From an uncultured bacterium (lineage in GTDB: Bacteria > Babelota > Babeliae > Babelales > Babelaceae): DNA of 64,000 bases. The position numbers were made by a program, and so were the translations under genes. The stretch is from assembly GCA_963722385.1 (NCBI GenBank), contig CAVRKK010000002.1, forward strand, positions 704,001 through 768,000, given 5' to 3'. The notes under the pieces are model-generated. The model had not been told where the DNA came from. It saw only the letters and a program-made list of their open reading frames with translations, and made no database searches. This document shows positions 9,070 through 35,155 of the stretch, piece after piece; position 1 is the first letter of the stretch; every line of letters begins with the position of its first letter.

Positions 9070-9335
9070 AACGCCCTTTAAAAAAATCAAAATGTTGAAG
9101 AATTAGTTTAGCAATATTTTAGTTATTTGACAAAACTGCTTTCAATCAGAATTTAAGTTGGCAATAAGTATTATTTTTTGACGTATATTTTGTAAAGCCT
9201 TAAAGCTTATTTGCTGAAATGCTTTCCTGTTTGCATGGTAAATGGGCAATGAATTGGTGGTCGATTTTTTTTGGAAGAGGTCTAAACTTAAAGGATAGTG
9301 TGGTTAACTTGAGTAACAAGAGCGTGAGGCAGTCG

Positions 9336-10061
9336 ATGGTTACTTCCCCGATATCCCCTAAGCCTTTGTTGGTAGTTGAAGGCAATATAGGCGCTGGCAA
9401 ATCGACATTTTTGCGCCTTATTGGCGATGTCTTGGATGCACAGCTTATTTATGAGCCAGTTGACGAATGGCAAAATGTTGGGGGCGAGAGTCTTTTAGAA
9501 TATTATTATCAGGACAAGCATCGTTGGGCATATACATTCCAGAGTTATGCATTTTTGACGCGTATTCGTGCCCAAGAGAAACATGCTCAGCATGGTAAAA
9601 TGATGCAAATACTGGAGCGATCTGTTTATTCAGACCGATATTGTTTTGCCCAAAACCATTTTGAACTGGGTACCATCAAGCCAATAGAGTGGCAGCTCTA
9701 TTGTGAGCTTTTTGAATGGTTTGTGGAGCAGCATGCTCCTAAACCAGATGCTTTTATTTATCTACGGGCTGATCCCAAGATTTGCCTCGAGCGCTTGCGC
9801 ACGCGTAATCGCTCAGAAGAGGTAGGTGTTCCCCTTGATTATCTAAGGCGAATTCATGATAAGCATGAGGATTTTCTTGTTCATCGCAAGGGCATCGCGG
9901 GATATTTAAGCTCGGTTCCGGTGCTTATTCTTGCATGTGATGAAGATTTTGAGCATAATAAACAAAAAGGGGACTCGCATATGAGTACCGTTATTGAATT
10001 CTTGCTAAAGCAGTTTCAACAGGATGGCTTATCAAGAGCAACGTTTGTGAGGGAATTATGA
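9336..10061 (+). CDS. Deoxynucleoside kinase
   Basis: VEGNIGAGKST P-loop, EPVDEW, ERSVYSDRY and RNRSEE; likely start ATG 9336 after GAGG. Confidence 0.93.
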   Translation: MVTSPISPKPLLVVEGNIGAGKSTFLRLIGDVLDAQLIYEPVDEWQNVGGESLLEYYYQDKHRWAYTFQSYAFLTRIRAQEKHAQHGKMMQILERSVYSDRYCFAQNHFELGTIKPIEWQLYCELFEWFVEQHAPKPDAFIYLRADPKICLERLRTRNRSEEVGVPLDYLRRIHDKHEDFLVHRKGIAGYLSSVPVLILACDEDFEHNKQKGDSHMSTVIEFLLKQFQQDGLSRATFVREL

Positions 10062-10309
10062 GCGAAGATATGGCAGTATATGCTAAAGTAGCGGCTTATT
10101 TAGGTGCTGCTTTTGCTATCGGGATTGGCACATTAGGACCCACCATGGGCCAGGGCATGATTGGCTCGAAGGGGTGCGAAAATATTGGCAAGTATCCTGA
10201 AAGTGCCAATAAAATTCAAACAGCGATGTTTGCTGGCCTGGCGATGGTTGAAACATCGGCACTTTTTGCATTTTTAACGGCACTATTTTTAATTCTGCTT
10301 GCTCGATAA
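10058..10309 (+). CDS. atpE: ATP synthase F0 subunit c (single hairpin)
   Basis: GIGTLGPTMGQG Gly motif; essential Glu in AMVETSALF. Confidence 0.92.
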   Translation: MSEDMAVYAKVAAYLGAAFAIGIGTLGPTMGQGMIGSKGCENIGKYPESANKIQTAMFAGLAMVETSALFAFLTALFLILLAR

Positions 10310-10315
10310 AATCGC

Positions 10316-10675
10316 ATGATAAATATAACCGTCTTGCTCCAGATAGCGCACTTTTTAATAGCGTACTGTATACTTGAGCGCTTTTTTTTGCGTTATGGTG
10401 CGCGTCAGATTCAGGAACAAGACGCGCTCTTTGCTCAAAGGCAGCAGGCGATTGCCGGCGCTCAAGAAGTGACGAAGGAACTGCAAAGCCATGTTTCTCT
10501 TTCTTGGCGGCATCAACAGCACCTCTTGCAGGCAGCGAGTCCTGAAGTAATTTTCCAACCGCAAGAATCGCATGTTCCTCGTTTTGAGCCGGTACCGGCC
10601 AGGATAAGCGATGCGCAAAAGCAGGCGCTGATTGAAGTCTTGAAAAACAGCGTTATTAAGCATGTGATACCATGA
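10316..10675 (+). CDS. ATP synthase F0 subunit b'-like (divergent)
   Basis: INITVLLQIAHFLI N-terminal TM followed by helix; position within atp operon. Confidence 0.7.
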   Translation: MINITVLLQIAHFLIAYCILERFFLRYGARQIQEQDALFAQRQQAIAGAQEVTKELQSHVSLSWRHQQHLLQAASPEVIFQPQESHVPRFEPVPARISDAQKQALIEVLKNSVIKHVIP

Positions 10676-11166
10676 TGATGATCGACCCCTTTTTCCGCCT
10701 CCTCAATTTTGGGATATTTTTAGCATTGGCAGCGTACTACGTTAAAAGAAACCTGATTGGGTTTATCAGAAGCCAATTGGTTCGTAAAAAAAATGCCCTT
10801 TATGCATTTGACCAAGAGGAAGTATCGCTTCAGACTGTTCAAGACAAGCTGCATGATCAGCTTCAGCAGCAAGACGCTCTCTATCATGGGCTTACGGCTA
10901 AGATAGCGCGCTGGCGGCAAGGATTTTTAGCTGAGCAAGATATGAAAAAGCAAAAGGCCGCCGTGGTCAATCAGCTCCTGGTAAGCAGATTAGGTAAGCA
11001 GCGGGAGGCTTATGTGCGCAATACAGCACTCCGTGACGTATTGCCTCAGGTGTTTAACGAATCTTTAGCTGAGCTCGCTGCTCAATTTAGTGACGAGTCC
11101 CGCGCTCAGGCATTTAATCAAAAGGCGATCGAAGCTTTAAAGGGCGAGCATGAGTATGAGTTATAG
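10672..11166 (+). CDS. atpF: ATP synthase F0 subunit b
   Basis: FFRLLNFGIFL TM followed by coiled coil; located before delta. Confidence 0.75.
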   Translation: MMMIDPFFRLLNFGIFLALAAYYVKRNLIGFIRSQLVRKKNALYAFDQEEVSLQTVQDKLHDQLQQQDALYHGLTAKIARWRQGFLAEQDMKKQKAAVVNQLLVSRLGKQREAYVRNTALRDVLPQVFNESLAELAAQFSDESRAQAFNQKAIEALKGEHEYEL

Positions 11167-11701
11167 CCAAATAGATCTTGCTTATAAGTATGCGCGTGCT
11201 TTTTTGAATGTTTACGGCAAAGGGCTTGCGGTAACGGATGCTCAACAGTTAGCTGAAATAAGCCACCAGCTTGGTAATATCAAAAAATTTCTTGTTTTTG
11301 CCGACCTTACGCATCTGGCCCATGATGCGCATGATACAATTATGCATTTTTTGGCGCCATTTGGCGTACATTTGAAGCTTAGCCAGCTTGTAATGCTTCT
11401 TGCTCAAGAATCAAGGCTTGCTCTTTTGGCCAATGTGCTTGATGCTCTTGTTGATCTCTTTCAGCAAGAAAGGGGAATTGTGCCCTGCGCAGTGACAAGT
11501 GCTTACCCCTTAACGCAGGAGCAAAAGGGCCAGGTTGAACAAGCGATCAGCGGCTGGCTGGCGCCTCGGGTTTCAGAAATGGTATATAAACTTGATAAAA
11601 ATCTTATCGCTGGTATCCGCATTCAGCTAGGCTTAACAATAGCAGAATGTTCGATTGCTCAAGAAGTGCAGAAAATGCGCAACAACGCATTAGTGGGGTA
11701 A
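11150..11701 (+). CDS. atpH: ATP synthase F1 subunit delta
   Basis: AYKYARA, VTSAYPLT and LDKNLIAGIRI motifs. Confidence 0.88.
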   Translation: MSMSYSQIDLAYKYARAFLNVYGKGLAVTDAQQLAEISHQLGNIKKFLVFADLTHLAHDAHDTIMHFLAPFGVHLKLSQLVMLLAQESRLALLANVLDALVDLFQQERGIVPCAVTSAYPLTQEQKGQVEQAISGWLAPRVSEMVYKLDKNLIAGIRIQLGLTIAECSIAQEVQKMRNNALVG

Positions 11702-11704
11702 AGC

Positions 11705-13210
11705 GTGGAAATTAAAAATACTGATTTAGTAGCGCTTTTTGAAAAGGCTCTTTTGCAAAAACAAGACTATAAGTTCGAAGAAATGGGCTTGGTAATTCAA
11801 GTAGCGGACTATACCTGTAAAGTATATGGCCTGACCAATGCGGTTTTTGGTGAGCTTGTTGTATGTCAAGGTGGCAATAGAGGAATTATTTTAAATCTTG
11901 ATGAAAATATTGTTACGGTCTTTTTGCTTGATGCCAATATTCCTGTTGCTGAGCACGAACTGGTCAAGAGGACGGGCGGGGTCTTTAAGGTTCCTGTTGG
12001 TATGCAGTTGCTGGGTCGGATTCTTAATGCTCAGGGCAAAGCTATTGATGGCCTTGAACCGTTGTCCTTTGAGGAAGAGCGTCCCACCGAGGCCCGGATA
12101 CCGGGTATTATTGAGCGCAGCCCGGTCAATGAATCGCTTGAAACGGGCATCTTGGCGGTTGATGCGCTGGTACCAATTGGCAAGGGCCAGCGAGAATTGA
12201 TTATTGGCAACCGTAGTACAGGAAAAACATCACTTGCGATAGATACCATAATTCACCAAAAGGATAAGAAGGTCTATTGCATTTATGTGTCAATTGGTCA
12301 ACGGCAAGCGAACGTTGTGCGCATTGCTCAAATGCTTGAGCAACATGGGGCCTTGGAATACACAATAATGATAAGCGCTGACGCGAGCGATCCCGCGATC
12401 AATCGCTATCTTGCTCCTTATGTTGGGTGTACGATGGGTGAGTTTTTTAGGGATAAGGGGTTTGATGCGCTTATTGTCTATGATGACCTAAGCAACCATG
12501 CGGTTGCCTACCGGGAAATGTCGTTGCTTATGAGGCGATCGCCTGGCCGAGAAGCATATCCTGGTGATGTTTTTTATCTCCATTCGCGCTTGCTTGAGCG
12601 CGCGGGCAAGCTGGCTCGTGGCGGGACCCTGACGGCGCTTCCCATTGTTCAAATTCAGGCCAATGATATAACTGCCTATATCCCCACCAACTTGATTTCG
12701 ATTACCGATGGCCAGATCTTTCTGGACACTCAATTGTTTAACAGTGGTGTTCGGCCAGCGGTCAATGTTGAGCTTTCGGTCTCTCGCGTAGGCGCCGCAG
12801 CCCAAACAAAAGCCATCAAGCAGGTTACGCGGGCGCTGCGTCTCGAGCTTGCCCAATATCATGACCTTTTGGCATTTGCTCAATTTGGTACCGAGCTTGA
12901 TATTATTTCTCAAAAGAAGCTTGAGCGTGGTGCGGTTATTATTAACTTACTCAAGCAAGAGCCGCTTGAAACCTATTCTTTTGTGGATCAGGCGCTCATG
13001 TTCTTCTTGCTTAAAGAAAATTATCTGGATAAAGTCCCTCTTGCCCAAGTTCATGACATGGCGGTGCGCTTTGCGAGCTACGTTCGCTTAGCCTACCCAG
13101 AATTGTATAGTGGTATCACGCTTGCCCAAGATATCTCGCCAGAAGCTTTAAAGAGCTTAAAGGGCATAGCGGCTGAGTTTGCTCAGCTGTTTGTTGCTGG
13201 AGGGGCATGA
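11705..13210 (+). CDS. atpA: ATP synthase F1 subunit alpha
   Basis: PIGKGQRELIIGNRSTGKT, GREAYPGDVFYLHSRLLERA and ITDGQIFL motifs. Confidence 0.98.
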   Translation: MEIKNTDLVALFEKALLQKQDYKFEEMGLVIQVADYTCKVYGLTNAVFGELVVCQGGNRGIILNLDENIVTVFLLDANIPVAEHELVKRTGGVFKVPVGMQLLGRILNAQGKAIDGLEPLSFEEERPTEARIPGIIERSPVNESLETGILAVDALVPIGKGQRELIIGNRSTGKTSLAIDTIIHQKDKKVYCIYVSIGQRQANVVRIAQMLEQHGALEYTIMISADASDPAINRYLAPYVGCTMGEFFRDKGFDALIVYDDLSNHAVAYREMSLLMRRSPGREAYPGDVFYLHSRLLERAGKLARGGTLTALPIVQIQANDITAYIPTNLISITDGQIFLDTQLFNSGVRPAVNVELSVSRVGAAAQTKAIKQVTRALRLELAQYHDLLAFAQFGTELDIISQKKLERGAVIINLLKQEPLETYSFVDQALMFFLLKENYLDKVPLAQVHDMAVRFASYVRLAYPELYSGITLAQDISPEALKSLKGIAAEFAQLFVAGGA

Positions 13211-13310: not shown

Positions 13311-13544
13311 ATGAGTTCTCGTGAAAAATTGATCCAGAAAATTTTTGCTGTGTCTCCAATCTCTTATGAGGAGGCTGAGAAACTCTTGCTAGCCGGGTAC
13401 TCACTTATGATTAAAGGGTCTCATCATGGGTTTAGAAAAAAAGGGTTTAAAAATATAATTCTTAAGAAAAGAGGGCAGCTTATAGCGTACCAAATTAAAG
13501 ATTTGCAAGAGGTTTTAATTAATCATGGTTACAAAAAAAAATAA
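13311..13544 (+). CDS. hicA: HicA-family toxin
   Basis: 77 aa basic protein with KGSH motif and YQIK. Confidence 0.85.
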   Translation: MSSREKLIQKIFAVSPISYEEAEKLLLAGYSLMIKGSHHGFRKKGFKNIILKKRGQLIAYQIKDLQEVLINHGYKKK

Positions 13545-13920
13545 GAAGATAAAAGATATTAATTATTATCTTGGCTTGCCTTGGACATTTACGATTGAAC
13601 AAGATAAAGACGAGTTTGGAAATAAAATATACGTTATAAGGGTAAATGAAATTCCAGAAGCGGCGACTGATGCTTCTTGTTTAGAGGATGCGATCGCTTT
13701 AATCGAGGAAGCCTTGGCGCTTGCCATAGAAATAAGGCTTGATCTGGGGGAAAAAATTCCTGAACCCGTAGGCAAGGAATATAAGGGGAGCATTGCTTAT
13801 AGAACAACCCCCCGACGGCACTATATTATTGCTCGTGAAGCCCAAAAGCGAGGACAGTCGTTGAGCAAATTTATTGATACTTTGGTTGATAGTGTTACGG
13901 AAGCCTTAAGAAAAAATTAG
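13525..13920 (+). CDS. hicB: HicB-family antitoxin
   Basis: YYLGLPW, GEKIPEP, YKGSIAYR and a C-terminal RHH-like segment; overlaps hicA. Confidence 0.88.
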   Translation: MVTKKNKKIKDINYYLGLPWTFTIEQDKDEFGNKIYVIRVNEIPEAATDASCLEDAIALIEEALALAIEIRLDLGEKIPEPVGKEYKGSIAYRTTPRRHYIIAREAQKRGQSLSKFIDTLVDSVTEALRKN

Positions 13921-13989
13921 TCTCATAAAATAGTCTCGAGGTGGTTTTCTGGCGGAATTTCTTGTAAAATAAGTAATATATCGACAAAA

Positions 13990-14066
13990 GCGCCCATAGC
14001 TCAGTTGGATAGAGCAACAGATTTCTAATCTGTAGGTCGTAGGTTCAAATCCTACTGGGCGCACCA
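13990..14066 (+). tRNA. tRNA-Arg (anticodon TCT)
   Basis: GCGCCCA/TGGGCGC acceptor stem, anticodon arm ACAGA-TTTCTAA-TCTGT, GGTTCAAATCC T-loop, encoded CCA. Confidence 0.97.
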
Positions 14067-14169
14067 AACTATTTTTTCCTGAGAAAGCTATATATTTATT
14101 GACTATTAGGCTAATTTTGTTTTAAACTCGTTGATAATGATATCAAACGAGAAAAACAAGGAGTTAGTT

Positions 14170-14730
14170 ATGAATAAATTACTGTCCGTATTTATAGCGG
14201 TACTCATTATGAGCTTTAATACTGCTCAAGGCTATTTGTTGTTTATCAAAAAAGAGGGAAATAAGCCAAATCTTATAGACTTAACTCAGCAGAGTTTATT
14301 AGCAAACAAAATTGGCCTCAACGAAAAAGATGAATTGGGAAACACGCCGTTAACGATAGCGGCGAGCAACGGGAATGATAAGCTGGTAAGGTTTCTAATT
14401 AAATCTGGAGCAGATATCAACCTTCAGGGATCATTGGGTACCCCGCTCATCTCGGCTGTTTTTAATAAACAGGCTATAATAGTCCGTTTACTTTTGCAAG
14501 CAAAGGCTAATCCAAACATAAAAAGCACGAACGGCGTAACTCCATTAATGTCTGCTTCGTGGCGGATGAGTAGAATGATGGTAGATGAGCTTCTTAAGGC
14601 CGGAGCCGATGCTAATCAAAAGACCCCAGATGGCGAAAATGCTCTAAGCATGTTGGAAGATCGAAAGAAGTTTCAGGAGAAAGAATATCAAGAGATAAAA
14701 AGCATCTTACAGGCTCATATGAAAAAATAA
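14170..14730 (+). CDS. Secreted ankyrin-repeat protein
   Basis: Signal peptide; GNTPLTIAA, GTPLISA, GVTPLMSA and GENAL ankyrin repeats. Confidence 0.9.
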   Translation: MNKLLSVFIAVLIMSFNTAQGYLLFIKKEGNKPNLIDLTQQSLLANKIGLNEKDELGNTPLTIAASNGNDKLVRFLIKSGADINLQGSLGTPLISAVFNKQAIIVRLLLQAKANPNIKSTNGVTPLMSASWRMSRMMVDELLKAGADANQKTPDGENALSMLEDRKKFQEKEYQEIKSILQAHMKK

Positions 14731-32538: not shown

Positions 32539-32566
32539 AAAGCCCCATTTCGATGGGGCTTTTTTT
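32539..32566 (+). terminator. Intrinsic terminator
   Basis: AGCCCCAT-TTCG-ATGGGGCT followed by a T tract. Confidence 0.85.
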
Positions 32567-32670
32567 ATTGCCAAAAATCTAAACTGCTTGGCTGGAAGTG
32601 ATTCTAGTTGCGTGCGCTCCGTGATAACTTTATACTGGTAATTATATATACAAGCCAAGGATACATTATC

Positions 32671-33408
32671 ATGCAAGGGTTTGAACTATTTGAGCACCAT
32701 GCGTGGCGCCCTTTTGAACGTATGGGGTGGACGCACTCATTTTGGACTATCGACATCGATACGATTCTATTTACCTGGCTTGTTCTTTTGCTTATCGTAA
32801 TCCTTGTGCTTTTGGGACGCTGGAGCCTCAGTCGGCCCGATAGTATTCCTGGCTACCTCGCGCAAGCATACGTGCGTAGCTTTGTGAACATGATAACACA
32901 ATCACTCGAGTACTTTAATTATCGCTACTTTGCCTTTATCGCGAGCCTGTTTACGTTCATCTTTCTGTGCAACATACTTATTATTCTACCCTATGGCGAA
33001 GAGCCGACCAAGAATATCAATACGACGCTCGCGCTGGCTCTCGTATCGTTTGCCTATGTTCAAAAAGAAAGCATTAAGGCACATGGATTGTGGGGCTATA
33101 TCAAAGAATTTTTTAAGCCCTTTTTTATTTTTTTCCCGCTCGAAGTTTTAGGCAAGCTCGCCACCATCGTCTCCCTCTCGTTTCGGCTTTTTGGCAATAT
33201 ATTTGGCGGCTCCATTATTAGCACGATGTGGCACAGCGCTATTGCCGGATCAATACTTGGCCAAATAGCTGGTACGCTTATGGGGGTCAGCATAATTATT
33301 ATGCTCTTTTTTGGCCTGTTTGAGGGTCTTATCCAGGCATTCGTATTTTCAATATTGACCTTAACGTATCTTTCAATGGCTACTGCACAAGAAAGCACTC
33401 ATGAATAG
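32671..33408 (+). CDS. atpB: ATP synthase F0 subunit a
   Basis: PTKNINTT, SLSFRLFGN (essential Arg) and IQAFVF..LT..Y. Confidence 0.95.
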   Translation: MQGFELFEHHAWRPFERMGWTHSFWTIDIDTILFTWLVLLLIVILVLLGRWSLSRPDSIPGYLAQAYVRSFVNMITQSLEYFNYRYFAFIASLFTFIFLCNILIILPYGEEPTKNINTTLALALVSFAYVQKESIKAHGLWGYIKEFFKPFFIFFPLEVLGKLATIVSLSFRLFGNIFGGSIISTMWHSAIAGSILGQIAGTLMGVSIIIMLFFGLFEGLIQAFVFSILTLTYLSMATAQESTHE

Positions 33409-34345
33409 CATTGCCCATTCAGCCACCATTGGTGCGCTTGTTGTTTTACCTGCCCTCGGTGTAGGTATTGGTCAGGGCCTTGTCAACAAGGCGGCGCTCG
33501 AAAGCATTAATCGGCAACCAGGTGCTGAAACAGCCCTGAGGCGCCTCGCCCTCATTTCTATGACTTTAAGCGAAACAGCTGTTTTGCTCGGCGTGGTCAT
33601 GGCGATTCTGTTGTTGGGATCGACGCCGAAGGTTCCCTATAGCATGTTTGCTTACGCCGGCATTGTCAGCGCGCTCGCGCTGCCGGCCTTTATTGTGGGC
33701 ATCATAGCAGCGGGGCCTGGCCGCGCTGCCCTTGAGGCCGCAACGCGCCAACCACTCTTTACGGGCAAGATCACGCAGCTCCTTTTGCTTACCCAAACGG
33801 TTCTTCAGACACCGACAATATTTGGCTTTATTATTGCGCTTATGTTACGCAGCCAGCTCAATACCATTAGCTCATTGAGTGACGCTTTACGCTTGTGTGC
33901 AAGCGGCATGACATTTGGTATAGCATGTATCGGGCCGCTCTTAGGATTGAGCTCCTTTACCAAAAGGGTTTGTCGGATTATCGGTGTCAACCGTGATATC
34001 TATCCACGCTTGCGTACCTTTACGTTTATCAGCCAGGCACTGATTGAGGCGCCCATTGTATTCGCGCTTATGGTGGCGCTTATTTTAGCAATCATAACCC
34101 CGACCGGGGCTTTGGTGGCTGACAGCAGTGCATTTCTTGCGGTAGCCTGCGCGATGGGGCTGAGTACCCTAGGCACCGGCTTGAATTCAGGGCGCGTCGC
34201 TACGCAGGCAGCCAAGCAAATAGGCCTACATCCCGAGCACTACAGTACGCTCGCCAAAATGAGCATGATCTCGCAAACCTTTATTGATACCTCATCAATT
34301 TACGGGCTGCTGCTCTCGCTTATTATTCTGCTCACCCGTTCCTAA
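33401..34345 (+). CDS. ATP synthase subunit c, four fused hairpins
   Basis: Four c-like units (RQP loops in units 1-2); ion-site residues in LSETA, VLQTP, LIEAP and FIDTS; overlaps atpB. Confidence 0.85.
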   Translation: MNSIAHSATIGALVVLPALGVGIGQGLVNKAALESINRQPGAETALRRLALISMTLSETAVLLGVVMAILLLGSTPKVPYSMFAYAGIVSALALPAFIVGIIAAGPGRAALEAATRQPLFTGKITQLLLLTQTVLQTPTIFGFIIALMLRSQLNTISSLSDALRLCASGMTFGIACIGPLLGLSSFTKRVCRIIGVNRDIYPRLRTFTFISQALIEAPIVFALMVALILAIITPTGALVADSSAFLAVACAMGLSTLGTGLNSGRVATQAAKQIGLHPEHYSTLAKMSMISQTFIDTSSIYGLLLSLIILLTRS

Positions 34346-35155
34346 TTCTTGATACACTTCCTGGCGGTCACGGTCATACGTAAAGCGTATCGATGAGGCA
34401 GCCTGGCTGAGCAGTTCATTTTCATAATCTTTTAATGCCTGCTTAACCCGGTTTTGCCGAATCGTATTTTCGATCTCACTCATACGCTTTTTGTCCTCTT
34501 CCGCATTACCTGTAACCAAGGGAGCCTGTCGCTCAGGGTTTTTCGCTATGATCTTGGTAAGTTCAAAGCCGCCTTGTATCTGTTCAATAAGTACAATTTC
34601 CCCTGGTACTTTTTGTCCAAAAAGCTGCTTATCCTGCGCGAGGTCATGTATATTTACCGTAAAGGGTGCTCCCCAGGCGATGGGCTTGGTAAGCGTTTGC
34701 GTGGCAAGCTCTTTCTCGAAATCAGCATTGTTCTGATTGCTCTCAACGGCCGCGGTGATGAGCGTTATACTTGCTGGCTCGATCGGTGCGTGTTTCTTCC
34801 AATAGTCCTCAATGTGGCTCTGCTCAACTGGCGAGGAGTGGATATCTTGAATGCGGAACCGCTGGAGTTGGTCAATCGTTTCCCGGCGCCGGAGTTGGTC
34901 GCGGCCTTCTGCCAGCGTATAGCCGCGTGACTTAAAAAGCATCTCTAATTGTTCTAAGTCGCAGTTATTGAGCTTTTGCAGCTGCTTAAGGTACTTGTCG
35001 ATATCTTCGTCGGTAATACGCACGTTAAATTTCTGCGCATCGATAAGCATCAGATGCTCAAGCACGACGTCGCGCAAAGTGCGTGGCTCACCCGACAAGA
35101 GCGGTCGCACATCGCGCGTCAAAATAAGCACGGTATCGGCCTGTCCGGCAATCAC
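34295..35155 (-). CDS. SurA N-terminal-domain chaperone-like protein (start uncertain)
   Basis: LMLIDAQKFNVRITDEDIDKYL...GYTL; adjacent to a PrsA-like gene; 5' end appears frameshifted. Confidence 0.7.
   Translation of the reverse strand: MIAGQADTVLILTRDVRPLLSGEPRTLRDVVLEHLMLIDAQKFNVRITDEDIDKYLKQLQKLNNCDLEQLEMLFKSRGYTLAEGRDQLRRRETIDQLQRFRIQDIHSSPVEQSHIEDYWKKHAPIEPASITLITAAVESNQNNADFEKELATQTLTKPIAWGAPFTVNIHDLAQDKQLFGQKVPGEIVLIEQIQGGFELTKIIAKNPERQAPLVTGNAEEDKKRMSEIENTIRQNRVKQALKDYENELLSQAASSIRFTYDRDRQEVYQELGTGEQNNKREQQPVN

What the first reader, a model, noticed from the sequence alone, without database searches (positions are those of the whole stretch)
33401..34345. Four-hairpin fused c-subunit implies a hybrid F0 rotor
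Seen: a 314-aa protein overlapping atpB comprises four c-subunit hairpins with E, Q, E and D at the ion-binding position. A normal 83-aa c-subunit is encoded separately at 10058. Known: Acetobacterium woodii mixes single c-subunits with a two-hairpin c1 lacking one carboxylate, and some methanogens have multiplied c-subunits. Inference: a hetero-oligomeric ring with altered ion/ATP ratio, possibly favouring ATP-driven pumping in a host-dependent cell, or a ring-assembly scaffold.
Basis: partly seen in the sequence, partly recalled or inferred. Interest (0 to 1): 0.78.

Follow-up and report, generated by a model that had tools for sequence, protein, structure and literature searches.

The report
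Four-hairpin ATPase rotor subunit, Dependentiae
This gene encodes an ATP-synthase rotor (c) subunit made of four fused hairpins, one of them without the ion-carrying acid, which the parasitic phylum Dependentiae keeps beside an ordinary single-hairpin c subunit, so the two likely build one mixed rotor ring, a design studied so far only in Acetobacterium-type acetogens with a two-hairpin subunit.

Summary
Confirmed. Window 33401-34345 (+) encodes a 314-aa protein of four F-type c-subunit hairpins (Pfam ATP-synt_C, four stretches, E 1.8e-26; AlphaFold2 pLDDT 97.3). E58, Q136, E216 and D296 sit at the ion-binding column. The gene starts 8 nt inside atpB.

The organism is a Dependentiae (TM6) bacterium. 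It has one F1Fo gene set, scattered over four loci, and a separate 83-aa c subunit.

The fused gene was found in 253 of 261 genomes of the phylum. It lies directly after atpB wherever the flank is present. All 40 relatives checked also keep a single c.

E-Q-E-D/E is one of two forms. A sister clade keeps acids in all four hairpins, so the fusion does not depend on losing a site.

Best reading (inferred, not shown): fused and single c share one mixed ring, as in Acetobacterium woodii but with four hairpins. The enzyme would be an ATP-driven, probably Na+, pump. A ring of fused subunits alone is not excluded.

I found no paper that describes this gene. This scan has noted the same gene before in at least 22 other Dependentiae genomes.

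The parts
32539..32562 (+). Terminator-like hairpin (10-bp stem, T tail) between the upstream Mur-ligase/FolC-like gene and atpB. It probably marks the start of a separate atpB-c4 transcription unit.
   Evidence: a consensus scan only; the total number of sites is not above the shuffles. for the flanking genes.
32608..33408 (+). atpB, F-type subunit a (266 aa as called from a TTG start; the true start may lie downstream). It contains the stator Arg in the stretch S-F-R-L-F-G-N.
   Evidence: PF00119 E 1.1e-40. It is the only PF00119 match in the genome. Motif position.
33401..34345 (+). Four-hairpin c subunit ('c4'), 314 aa. Its start overlaps the end of atpB by 8 nt.
33401..33637 (+). Hairpin 1 (aa 1-79). 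It has Q25 in helix 1, an N-R-Q-P loop and E58-T59, that is the Q....ET pattern.
   Evidence: In 176 orthologues: E 175, D 1.
33638..33874 (+). Hairpin 2 (aa 80-158). Q136-T137 replaces the carboxylate. Its R116-Q117-P118 loop is the most conserved motif of the protein.
   Evidence: Q 131, E 39, M 5, G 1 of 176. R 145, Q 144, P 147 of 148.
33875..34111 (+). Hairpin 3 (aa 159-237). It has E216-A217 and a G-x-N-R loop.
   Evidence: E 172, G 2, Q 1, D 1 of 176.
34112..34342 (+). Hairpin 4 (aa 238-314). It has D296-T297, Y301 and an H-P-E loop. Of the four, it is the most like the single c.
   Evidence: D 105, E 65, N 5, Q 1 of 176. hhalign score against the single-c profile 123.8.
10058..10309 (+). 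Ordinary single-hairpin c subunit (83 aa) with Q32, a K45-Y46-P47-E48 loop, E65-T66-S67 and F70. Its start overlaps the stop of a deoxynucleoside kinase gene by 4 nt.
10316..11166 (+). Two small ORFs (119 and 164 aa) in the position of subunits b'/b. This assignment rests on position only.
   Evidence: No Pfam ATP-synt_B match at E <= 1.
11150..13210 (+). Delta (OSCP) and alpha subunits, the end of this atp gene run.
   Evidence: PF00213 E 3.7e-23; PF00006 E 2e-80.

Best explanation
The gene encodes a four-hairpin F-type c subunit, and this subunit likely sits together with copies of the ordinary 83-residue c subunit in one mixed rotor ring of the cell's only F1Fo ATPase. The enzyme would run mainly as an ATP-driven, predicted Na+-translocating, pump.

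Shown: four c hairpins in one chain, with the normal c topology. Acids are conserved in hairpins 1, 3 and 4, and Gln in hairpin 2 of this clade. The gene is conserved across the phylum directly behind atpB. A single c with an intact Glu is also kept across the relatives checked. The window's genome has one set of all other subunits.

Inferred: both c types pass the same subunit a in the same ring. The fused arc is present in low copy, probably one per ring, because its start is coupled to that of the single-copy subunit a. Hairpin 2 passes the stator as a blank, as the Q-bearing hairpin of Acetobacterium woodii c1 does. The four non-equivalent hairpins give the ring a fixed asymmetric segment.
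For: (1) It is a real c subunit. Pfam finds four stretches. AF2 gives pLDDT 97.3. The four hairpin loops hold 16 K+R against 3 in the linkers and termini.

(2) Selection acts on each hairpin separately. In 176 non-identical orthologues: h1 E 175; h2 Q 131, E 39; h3 E 172; h4 D 105, E 65. Each hairpin position is monophyletic across 38 genomes, with support 0.83, 0.999, 0.998 and 0.64. Hairpin 2 is not relaxed: mean pairwise identity is h1 0.33, h2 0.41, h3 0.44, h4 0.37.

(3) Both genes are kept. The fused c is in 253 of 261 genomes of the phylum and in 188 of 189 high-quality ones. The one high-quality miss is a gene cut by a contig end. A single c is found in 39 of 40 relatives with the first query and in the 40th with Pfam. 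E65 is present in 40 of 40 single c sequences.

(4) There is only one enzyme. The own genome has one PF00119 match, one gamma, one alpha, one beta and one unrelated third match, and one epsilon.

(5) The gene order is a, fused c ... single c, b-like ORFs. This order is read. That A. woodii has the order atpB-atpE1(c1)-atpE2/3-atpF is recalled. The passages of PMC7911925 seen say only that A. woodii and C. aceticum share the gene order. atpB lies directly upstream in 20 of 20, 19 of 20, 79 of 80 and 30 of 30 loci. These sets overlap. Both misses are contig ends. The commonest spacings are -4, -1 and +2 nt.

(6) The E-T to Q-T change is the same as in the ion-blind hairpin of A. woodii and C. 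aceticum c1 (alignment; PMC7911925 passages).

(7) The complex prediction used one c4 plus four single c, with the single c scored. It gave weak support: score 0.42 against a best control of 0.00 among 3. The mark was reached by 116 of 157 solved complexes and 2 of 215 mismatched pairs. At 0.60 or under it was reached by only 18 of those 157 and by both mismatches. The runs agree in at least 92% of contacts, and the partner's pLDDT is at least 66. c-rings have been solved, so the pass may come from memory.

(8) Pump mode. The own genome has three tandem ATP/ADP translocase ORFs, no COX1 and a membrane pyrophosphatase. Epsilon is 82 aa. Its open frame is 79-112 aa in all 39 of the 41 genomes (own included) where it was found. 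Passages of PMC4776705 and PMC6561590 say that TM6 bacteria lack an electron transport chain and probably run the ATP synthase in reverse.

(9) Na+. The Q....E[ST] motif is present in 34 of 40 single c sequences and in hairpin 1. The motif is as defined in PMC7911925.
Against: No call shows co-assembly. Two to four copies of the fused subunit alone would give 8, 12 or 16 hairpins, and these sizes lie within the known range of c-rings (recalled). The complex prediction is only a weak pass: one of its three runs scored 0.12, and I tested an arbitrary 8-hairpin composition. Shine-Dalgarno-like motifs do not separate the two genes, so the low copy number of c4 rests on start-stop overlap alone. 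No RNA data exist. The ion is not tested. Hairpins 2 to 4 lack the helix-1 Gln, and the window's single c has F70 where most relatives have Y. My 176 sequences are not a random sample of the phylum.
Confidence: 0.55

Rival explanations
1. The fused subunit alone forms the rotor ring (for example three copies: 12 hairpins with 9 sites in this clade). The single c would then form an alternative ring at another stage of the life cycle, or have another role.
For: Fused multi-hairpin c subunits form whole rings in archaea (PMC9171764 passages; the preprint 10.64898/2026.10.01.756066 mentions a 13-hairpin subunit). c4 stands in the canonical atpE position behind atpB. A fused-only ring would give a real gear change, 9 instead of 12 ions per turn. 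Several earlier notes of this scan read it this way.
Against: It leaves the single c unexplained. That gene is kept in 40 of 40 relatives with genomes of 0.5-1.9 Mb. It has E65 in 40 of 40 sequences and is the most conserved of the c units (0.48 mean pairwise identity). It heads the run of genes c, b-like ORFs, delta, alpha. Only one subunit a and one F1 are there to serve two rings.
Confidence: 0.22
2. The fused protein is not part of the mature rotor. It would be a template or chaperone on which the ring of single c subunits is built next to subunit a, or a stator-side partner of subunit a.
For: Its translation looks coupled to subunit a. The four hairpins are non-equivalent. No atpI-like gene was noticed beside atpB in the window (I did not search for one).
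Against: The membrane-buried acids of hairpins 1, 3 and 4 are nearly invariant, as is the Thr or Ser after them. This makes sense only for hairpins that carry ions past subunit a. The R-Q-P loop of hairpin 2 is the F1-facing motif of working c subunits (recalled) and is kept in 144-147 of 148 sequences.
Confidence: 0.08
3. It is an artefact: four tandem atpE genes joined by sequencing or assembly errors, or a decaying pseudogene.
For: One relative (G008) has the gene in two frames of 207 and 139 aa.
Against: The frame is open over its full length in about 250 independent assemblies, closed genomes among them. The hairpins are only 9-29% identical to each other, so they are not recent tandem copies. 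The linkers are conserved in length. A search for shorter forms found only 3 fragments.
Confidence: 0.01

Closest known systems
Subunit c1 (atpE1) of the Na+ F1Fo ATP synthase of Acetobacterium woodii and Clostridium aceticum: the F/V-hybrid ring c1(c2/3)9, PDB 4BEM chain J
   Same: It is an F-type enzyme with a multi-hairpin c encoded together with a single-hairpin c. One hairpin has Q-T in place of E-T, and the other units carry the Q....ET Na+ motif. It is the best sequence match (E 4.7e-22) and the best fold match among solved chains. The A. woodii ring of nine single c plus one c1 is documented (PMC9171764 passages).
   Different: The window's protein has four hairpins, not two. Solved chains cover only half of the model (TMq about 0.43). 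Its hairpins are old and very unlike each other (9-29% identity), against 58% between the two hairpins of C. aceticum c1 (PMC7911925). The two c genes lie in separate loci. It is kept by a whole phylum of ATP-importing parasites, not by energy-limited acetogens. A sister clade keeps all four acids. The hairpins group as (h1,h2) and (h3,h4), and 81.7 bits over two hairpins is no more than two single-hairpin hits. The fusion therefore looks independent of c1.
Multi-hairpin c/K subunits of archaeal A1Ao ATP synthases (2, 3 or 13 hairpins)
   Same: Covalent fusion of c hairpins, in some cases with loss of some ion sites (PMC9171764 passages; preprint passages).
   Different: Those are A/V-type proteolipids that form the ring alone. 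Here the hairpins are F-type. NCBIfam F-type models score 61-102 bits, while V-type K models score 10-36 bits against cut-offs of 101-211. The partner subunits are F-type a, delta and epsilon. A four-hairpin form is not in the list of forms given in those passages.
V-type proteolipids (eukaryotic c/c'/c'', Enterococcus hirae NtpK)
   Same: Duplicated hairpins with fewer acids than hairpins, in enzymes that work as ATP-driven pumps. They come next after 4BEM_J in the fold search.
   Different: They have two hairpins with one acid, belong to a different family and have a different stator. Here three (or four) of four sites are kept.
Ordinary single-hairpin F-type c subunits (for example the Spirulina, chloroplast and Ilyobacter chains hit)
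   Same: Each of the four hairpins matches them. All have the Gly-rich helix 1, the polar loop and the acid in helix 2.
   Different: Here four hairpins are joined in one chain, and each has its own conserved signature.

Membership tests
F-type ATP synthase subunit c (Pfam PF00137 ATP-synt_C) | Sequence match above the curated cut-off | tested here: met
   92.6 bits against a cut-off of 24, in four stretches. In the six-frame scan three of the four stretches exceed the cut-off on their own; hairpin 2 scores 20.6 bits.
F-type ATP synthase subunit c (Pfam PF00137 ATP-synt_C) | Helical hairpin with both termini on the outer side and a polar loop on the cytoplasmic side | tested here: met
   The AF2 model has eight helices in four hairpins, pLDDT 97.3. 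The loops hold 16 K+R against 3 in the linkers and termini. The orientation is inferred from the positive-inside rule.
F-type ATP synthase subunit c (Pfam PF00137 ATP-synt_C) | Membrane-buried carboxylate in the second helix | tested here: met
   Present in hairpins 1, 3 and 4 (E58, E216, D296). Hairpin 2 has Q136. Conservation.
F-type ATP synthase subunit c (Pfam PF00137 ATP-synt_C) | Encoded with F-type partner subunits | tested here: met
   It lies directly behind atpB here and in every locus whose flank is present.
F-type ATP synthase subunit c (Pfam PF00137 ATP-synt_C) | Found in the c-ring of the purified enzyme | not testable with these tools
   Needs biochemistry or cryo-EM.
Hybrid F-type rotor of the A. 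woodii kind (c1 plus c2/3) | A multi-hairpin c with an ion-blind hairpin (Q-T instead of E-T) | tested here: met
   Q136-T137 in the window. Q in 131 of 176 orthologues. Not met in the sister clade, where 39 of 176 have E.
Hybrid F-type rotor of the A. woodii kind (c1 plus c2/3) | A single-hairpin c gene in the same genome, serving the same enzyme | tested here: met
   The 83-aa c at 10058..10309. One a and one F1 set in the genome. Both c genes are present in 40 of 40 relatives.
Hybrid F-type rotor of the A. woodii kind (c1 plus c2/3) | The fused subunit has two hairpins (V-type-like, about 18 kDa) | tested here: not met
   It has four hairpins and 314 aa.
Hybrid F-type rotor of the A. woodii kind (c1 plus c2/3) | Both c types are encoded side by side in one atp operon | tested here: not met
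   The two genes lie 23 kb apart in the window. No single c lies within 1.5 kb of c4 in the loci scanned.
Hybrid F-type rotor of the A. woodii kind (c1 plus c2/3) | Both c types are assembled in one ring | tested here: inconclusive
   The complex prediction gave weak support only: 0.42 against 0.00 for the best control, and possibly from memory of solved rings.
Na+-binding c subunits (Q....E-T/S motif as given in PMC7911925) | Gln in helix 1 plus Ser or Thr after the carboxylate | tested here: met
   The single c has Q32, E65 and T66. The motif is present in 34 of 40 single c sequences. Hairpin 1 has Q25, E58 and T59. Hairpins 2 to 4 lack the helix-1 Gln. Actual ion use is not testable here.
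V/A-type proteolipid (subunit K/c) | Match to V-type K models above the cut-off | tested here: not met
   The best V-type K model scores 35.6 bits against a cut-off of 211.

The most novel reading that the evidence does not exclude
Dependentiae F-ATPases have an obligatorily asymmetric rotor: one covalent four-hairpin arc plus single c subunits. The arc would be the only docking site of the gamma/epsilon stalk and the nucleus that sets ring size. Hairpin 2 keeps the canonical F1-facing R-Q-P loop almost without change (144-147 of 148), whereas the single c carries K-Y-P-E. Stalk-to-ring attachment would then be position-specific, which is not known for any F-type enzyme.
Probability: 0.2. Interest if true: 0.8.

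Novelty: new variant of a known kind. Interest (0 to 1): 0.62.

Why it matters
Hybrid F-type rotor rings rest on one studied case, A. woodii, with C. aceticum inferred from sequence. The gene described here would add a second, independently evolved and much older case. It has a four-hairpin subunit, is fixed in a whole phylum, and occurs in two natural versions: four ion sites in the arc, or three.

That would give a natural experiment on three questions:
- what covalent linkage of c subunits is for (ring size, assembly, stalk docking), as opposed to what loss of a site is for (gearing);
- how an F-type enzyme is reshaped for permanent ATP-driven pumping, here together with an epsilon that lacks its C-terminal part;
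- whether these energy parasites run a Na+ rather than an H+ cycle.

Cultured strains in amoebae make it testable.

Tried and rejected
- Expression data: no RNA holder was listed for the stretch, so I could not compare mRNA levels of the two c genes.
- Shine-Dalgarno-like motifs upstream of 147 c4 and 39 single c starts do not separate the genes. All 39 single c have a match of at least 4 nt, and 25 of 147 c4 have none. The start calls are naive.
- Larger fusions: a search of proteins of 551-2000 aa found none (weak evidence by the tool's own note).
- Split or shorter forms: only 3 fragments turned up, one of them the broken gene of G008.
- ESM Atlas: the nearest clusters are 314-, 228- and 323-aa 'ATP synthase F(0) subunit c family' proteins labelled mostly Thermodesulfobacteriota (phylum known for 4-19 members). 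I treat the label as unverified.
- Occurrence outside Dependentiae: the genome-contig scan returned 80 loci. Of these, 36 are named Dependentiae, Babeliales, TM6, Vermiphilus or Chromulinivoraceae; 12 are 'uncultured Pseudomonadota'; 32 are 'bacterium' or 'uncultured bacterium'. Three of the 'Pseudomonadota' records coincide in contig length and coordinates with genomes that the genome search places in the window's own order (G026, G198, G204). That scan was keyed on a hairpin-3 motif and capped at 80 loci, so occurrence outside the phylum was not really tested.
No result was used.
- An IQ-TREE run of the hairpin tree was lost when the script machine fell silent. FastTree was used instead.
- I could not read model coordinates, so the arc curvature, and thus the ring size, could not be measured.
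- Close kinship with A. woodii c1 is rejected: its score over two hairpins is no higher than two single-hairpin hits.
Full report
WHAT IS THERE

The ORF 33401..34345 (+) encodes 314 residues and ends in TAA. Its ATG lies inside the last codons of the preceding ORF 32608..33408, an 8-nt overlap (ATGAATAG). That preceding ORF is F-type subunit a (PF00119, E 1.1e-40).

Pfam ATP-synt_C matches the 314-aa protein in four stretches (E 1.8e-26, 92.6 bits, cut-off 24). NCBIfam F-type c models score 61-102 bits, while V-type K models stay at 10-36 bits against cut-offs of 101-211.

I cut the protein into four ~78-residue units and aligned them with the 83-aa c subunit encoded at 10058..10309. The ion-binding column holds E58, Q136, E216 and D296, against E65 of the single c. 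The units are only 9-29% identical to each other and 18-26% identical to the single c.

AlphaFold2 on an 85-sequence alignment gives eight helices in four hairpins, with mean pLDDT 97.3 and pTM 0.93. The four hairpin loops carry 16 Lys+Arg, against 3 in the linkers and termini. That is the normal c topology: loops toward F1 (inferred from the positive-inside rule).

THE ORGANISM AND ITS ENZYME

The genome holds 1.6 Mb in 2 contigs and is 93% complete. Close homologues carry the names Candidatus Dependentiae, Babeliales, TM6, Vermiphilus pyriformis and Chromulinivoraceae.

The genome has these matches:
- one subunit a;
- one single c and one fused c;
- one gamma;
- one alpha, one beta and a weaker third PF00006 match;
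- one epsilon.

The genes lie in four places:
- single c, two b-like ORFs, delta, alpha (window 10058-13210);
- a, c4 (window 32608-34345);
- beta, epsilon (outside the window);
- gamma (outside the window).

So there is one F1Fo enzyme and two kinds of c subunit.

The genome also has three tandem ATP/ADP translocase ORFs, no COX1 match and one membrane pyrophosphatase. Passages of Yeoh et al. 2016 (PMC4776705) and Deeg et al. 2019 (PMC6561590) say that TM6 bacteria lack an electron transport chain, import host ATP, and probably use the ATP synthase in reverse to keep up the membrane potential.

Epsilon is only 82 aa here. Its open frame is 79-112 aa in all 39 of the 41 genomes (the window's own and 40 relatives) where it was found. 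It therefore lacks the C-terminal helical part. In other bacteria that part inhibits ATP hydrolysis (recalled), so its loss fits a permanent pump.

DISTRIBUTION

With the window's protein as query, 253 of 261 genomes of the phylum have a match at E <= 1e-15. All 261 are placed in one order by the tool. Among high-quality genomes the count is 188 of 189.

The eight genomes without a match are 53-96% complete. The 96% one (G036) has the gene cut off by the end of a 3.5-kb contig.

Subunit a lies directly upstream on the same strand in:
- 20 of 20 loci;
- 19 of 20 loci;
- 79 of 80 loci;
- 30 of 30 loci.

The two misses are genes at a contig edge. These four sets come from overlapping collections of species genomes and must not be added up. 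The commonest spacings are -4, -1 and +2 nt, as expected for coupled translation.

A single-hairpin c gene was found in 39 of 40 relatives with the fused protein as query, and in the fortieth (G022) with the Pfam model. In no locus was a single c seen within 1.5 kb of c4.

A search for proteins longer than 550 aa found none. A search for shorter ones found three fragments. Whether such a gene occurs outside Dependentiae was not properly tested. The contig scan was keyed on a hairpin-3 motif and capped at 80 loci. Three of its twelve 'uncultured Pseudomonadota' records are the same contigs as genomes of the window's own order. The Atlas label 'Thermodesulfobacteriota' is unverified.

CONSERVATION OF THE FOUR SITES

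I collected 176 non-identical full-length orthologues. Sequences under 295 aa and duplicates were dropped.

The sample is not random. It holds:
- 47 database proteins nearest the query;
- loci from 40 relatives;
- loci from the motif-keyed scan;
- 30 loci chosen from family f11.

The acid column reads:

| Hairpin | Residues at the acid column (of 176) |
|---|---|
| 1 | E 175, D 1 |
| 2 | Q 131, E 39, M 5, G 1 |
| 3 | E 172, G 2, Q 1, D 1 |
| 4 | D 105, E 65, N 5, Q 1 |

The patterns are E-Q-E-D 95, E-E-E-E 33, E-Q-E-E 28, E-M-E-D 5, E-Q-E-N 5 and E-E-E-D 4, with six others.

A midpoint-rooted FastTree splits the set into two clades. One holds 138 sequences, almost all with Q in hairpin 2. The other holds 38, of which 33 are E-E-E-E. 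In family f11, 29 of 30 are E-E-E-E.

Since every hairpin descends from a c subunit with an acid, E-E-E-E is the likely ancestral state of the fusion (inference). Fusion came first, and the blank site arose later in one large clade. The window belongs to that clade.

Hairpin 2 is not decaying. Mean pairwise identity is h1 0.33, h2 0.41, h3 0.44 and h4 0.37, against 0.48 for the single c.

FOUR DIFFERENT HAIRPINS

In a tree of 38 genomes x 4 hairpins plus 40 single c sequences, each hairpin position is monophyletic (support 0.83, 0.999, 0.998, 0.64). Hairpins 1 and 2 pair (0.975), and so do hairpins 3 and 4 (0.981). The fusion therefore predates the radiation of the sampled phylum. It arose by duplication of neighbouring units, not by doubling of a two-hairpin gene.

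Profile comparison with the single c gives h4 123.8, h3 104.4, h1 90.2 and h2 52.7.

Each position has its own signature (38 genomes):

| Feature (single-c numbering) | Single c | h1 | h2 | h3 | h4 |
|---|---|---|---|---|---|
| Helix-1 position 32 | Gln (38/40) | Gln (32/38) | Ser (28/38) | Leu (20/38), Gln (8/38) | Ser (30/38) |
| Position 61, one turn before the acid | Leu | Leu | Gln (24/38) | Gln (25/38) | Gln (35/38) |
| Loop | K-Y-P-E | x-Q-P | R-Q-P-F | x-N-R/K | x-N-P-E |

- Thr or Ser follows the acid column in all five units.
- R, Q and P of the hairpin-2 loop are kept in 145, 144 and 147 of 148 sequences.
- R-Q-P is the classical F1-facing loop of c subunits (recalled). It survives best in the very hairpin that lost its acid.

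HOW IT MOST LIKELY WORKS

Shown:
- two c genes, both under purifying selection, both with working-type acids;
- one stator subunit a and one F1.

Inferred:
- Both c types sit in one ring.
- The fused arc has low copy number, perhaps one, because its translation looks tied to that of the single-copy subunit a.
- The single c fills the rest of the ring.

The only studied parallel is A. woodii. Its Na+ F1Fo has nine single-hairpin c subunits and one two-hairpin c1 with one site (PMC9171764 passages). The second hairpin of c1 carries Q-T instead of E-T (PMC7911925 passages; alignment).

The window's gene order is a, fused c ... single c, b-like ORFs, cut in two between the c genes. That this equals the A. 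woodii order atpB-atpE1-atpE2/3-atpF is recalled. The passages I saw say only that the order is shared with C. aceticum.

The best solved match by sequence is A. woodii c1 (4BEM_J, E 4.7e-22, aligned to hairpins 3-4). It is also the best by fold. No solved chain covers more than half of the model (TMq about 0.43).

A complex prediction with one c4 and four single c gave weak support. The score was 0.42 (runs 0.48, 0.12, 0.42) against a best control of 0.00 among three. The mark was reached by 116 of 157 solved complexes and 2 of 215 mismatched pairs. At 0.60 or under it was reached by only 18 of those 157 and by both mismatches. The runs agree in at least 92% of contacts, and the partner's pLDDT is at least 66. 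As c-rings are solved, this may be likeness from memory.

The single c has Q....E-T/S in 34 of 40 sequences, and hairpin 1 has it too. This is the Na+ motif as defined in PMC7911925, so Na+ coupling is predicted but untested.

WHAT THE BLANK SITE DOES

- In a mixed ring of 4+n hairpins, one blank lowers the ions per turn from n+4 to n+3. That is about a tenth for a 10-hairpin ring.
- In a ring of three fused subunits it would be 9 instead of 12.
- A lower ratio lets a pump build a higher gradient per ATP (established thermodynamics).
- The E-E-E-E clade shows that this cannot be why the hairpins are fused.
- The purpose of the linkage itself is open. Candidates are ring size, assembly next to subunit a, or a fixed docking place for gamma/epsilon. 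The last is my most novel reading.

RIVALS

- A ring of fused subunits alone (0.22) is structurally possible but leaves the universally kept, best-conserved single c without a job.
- A scaffold outside the mature ring (0.08) does not explain the near-invariant buried acids.
- An artefact (0.01) is excluded by about 250 independent open frames.

LITERATURE

- No paper holds 'Dependentiae', 'ATP synthase' and 'c subunit' together.
- No paper holds 'four hairpins' with 'ATP synthase'.
- Five papers with Dependentiae, F-type and ATPase were seen as a listing only.
- The TM6 genome papers mention the ATP synthase only in general terms (passages). The Babela paper does not contain the words 'ATP synthase'.
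- A 2026 preprint on rotary ATPase evolution does not mention Dependentiae (term counts and passages).
- Matthies 2014 and McLean 2013 are not held. Brandt & Mueller 2015 was not seen.
- Public records call the protein 'ATP synthase F0, C subunit', 'F0F1-type ATP synthase membrane subunit c/vacuolar-type H+-ATPase subunit K' or 'hypothetical protein'.

EARLIER NOTES OF THIS SCAN

The same gene has been noted in at least 22 other Dependentiae genomes (25 findings), with readings like mine. These are unchecked AI notes, not independent evidence.

VERDICT

This is a real, ancient four-hairpin F-type c subunit found across the phylum. It is a new variant of the known kind 'multi-hairpin c subunit / hybrid rotor'. 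Its architecture is shown; its place in a mixed ring is probable but unproven.

Noticed in passing
L051:1501-1749 (own genome, G000:C2 about 662467-662715, outside the window): Subunit epsilon is only 82 aa: the N-terminal domain without the C-terminal helical part. Its start overlaps the stop of beta by 4 nt. Its open frame is 79-112 aa in all 39 of the 41 genomes (own included) where it was found, so the short form is phylum-wide.
   Followed up: partly
window 10058-13210 and 32608-34345; G000:C2:661454-662700; G000:C2:1014910-1015728: The F1Fo genes are scattered over four loci (c, b-like ORFs, delta, alpha; a, c4; beta, epsilon; gamma) instead of forming one operon.
   Followed up: partly
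window 9219-10061 and 10058: The single c gene starts 4 nt inside the stop of a deoxynucleoside kinase gene (PF01712, E 1.3e-58). This is an odd translational partner for atpE.
   Followed up: no
window 10316-11166: The two ORFs in the b'/b position (119 and 164 aa) give no Pfam ATP-synt_B match at E <= 1. The peripheral stalk is very divergent.
   Followed up: no
window 13525-14730: A HicB-like antitoxin ORF (131 aa) and an ankyrin-repeat protein (199 aa) follow alpha where gamma would normally lie.
   Followed up: no
G000:C2:903079-907247 (outside the window): Three tandem ATP/ADP translocase (TLC) ORFs. The third matches the model in two pieces.
   Followed up: no
L021 / L134 (G008:C12:18826-19765): One relative has the fused c gene in two frames (207 and 139 aa). 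This is a frameshift or an assembly error, in a genome with 7% contamination.
   Followed up: partly
c4 hairpins 2-4, position one helical turn before the acid column (window Q132, Q212, Q292): Hairpins 2, 3 and 4 lack the helix-1 Gln but carry a conserved Gln four residues before the acid column (24, 25 and 35 of 38). Hairpin 1 and the single c have Leu there. This may be a relocated ion ligand.
   Followed up: no
window 34295-35155 (-): A SurA_N-like ORF converges on c4. As called from a GTG start, it overlaps the last 51 nt of c4. Its true start is probably further in.
   Followed up: no
L099, L101, L102, L120, L122, L131, L138, L145, L149, L153, L166, L167: Twelve public MAG records with this gene are titled 'uncultured Pseudomonadota bacterium'. 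At least three are the same contigs as genomes placed in the window's own Dependentiae order, so the titles look like mislabels.
   Followed up: partly
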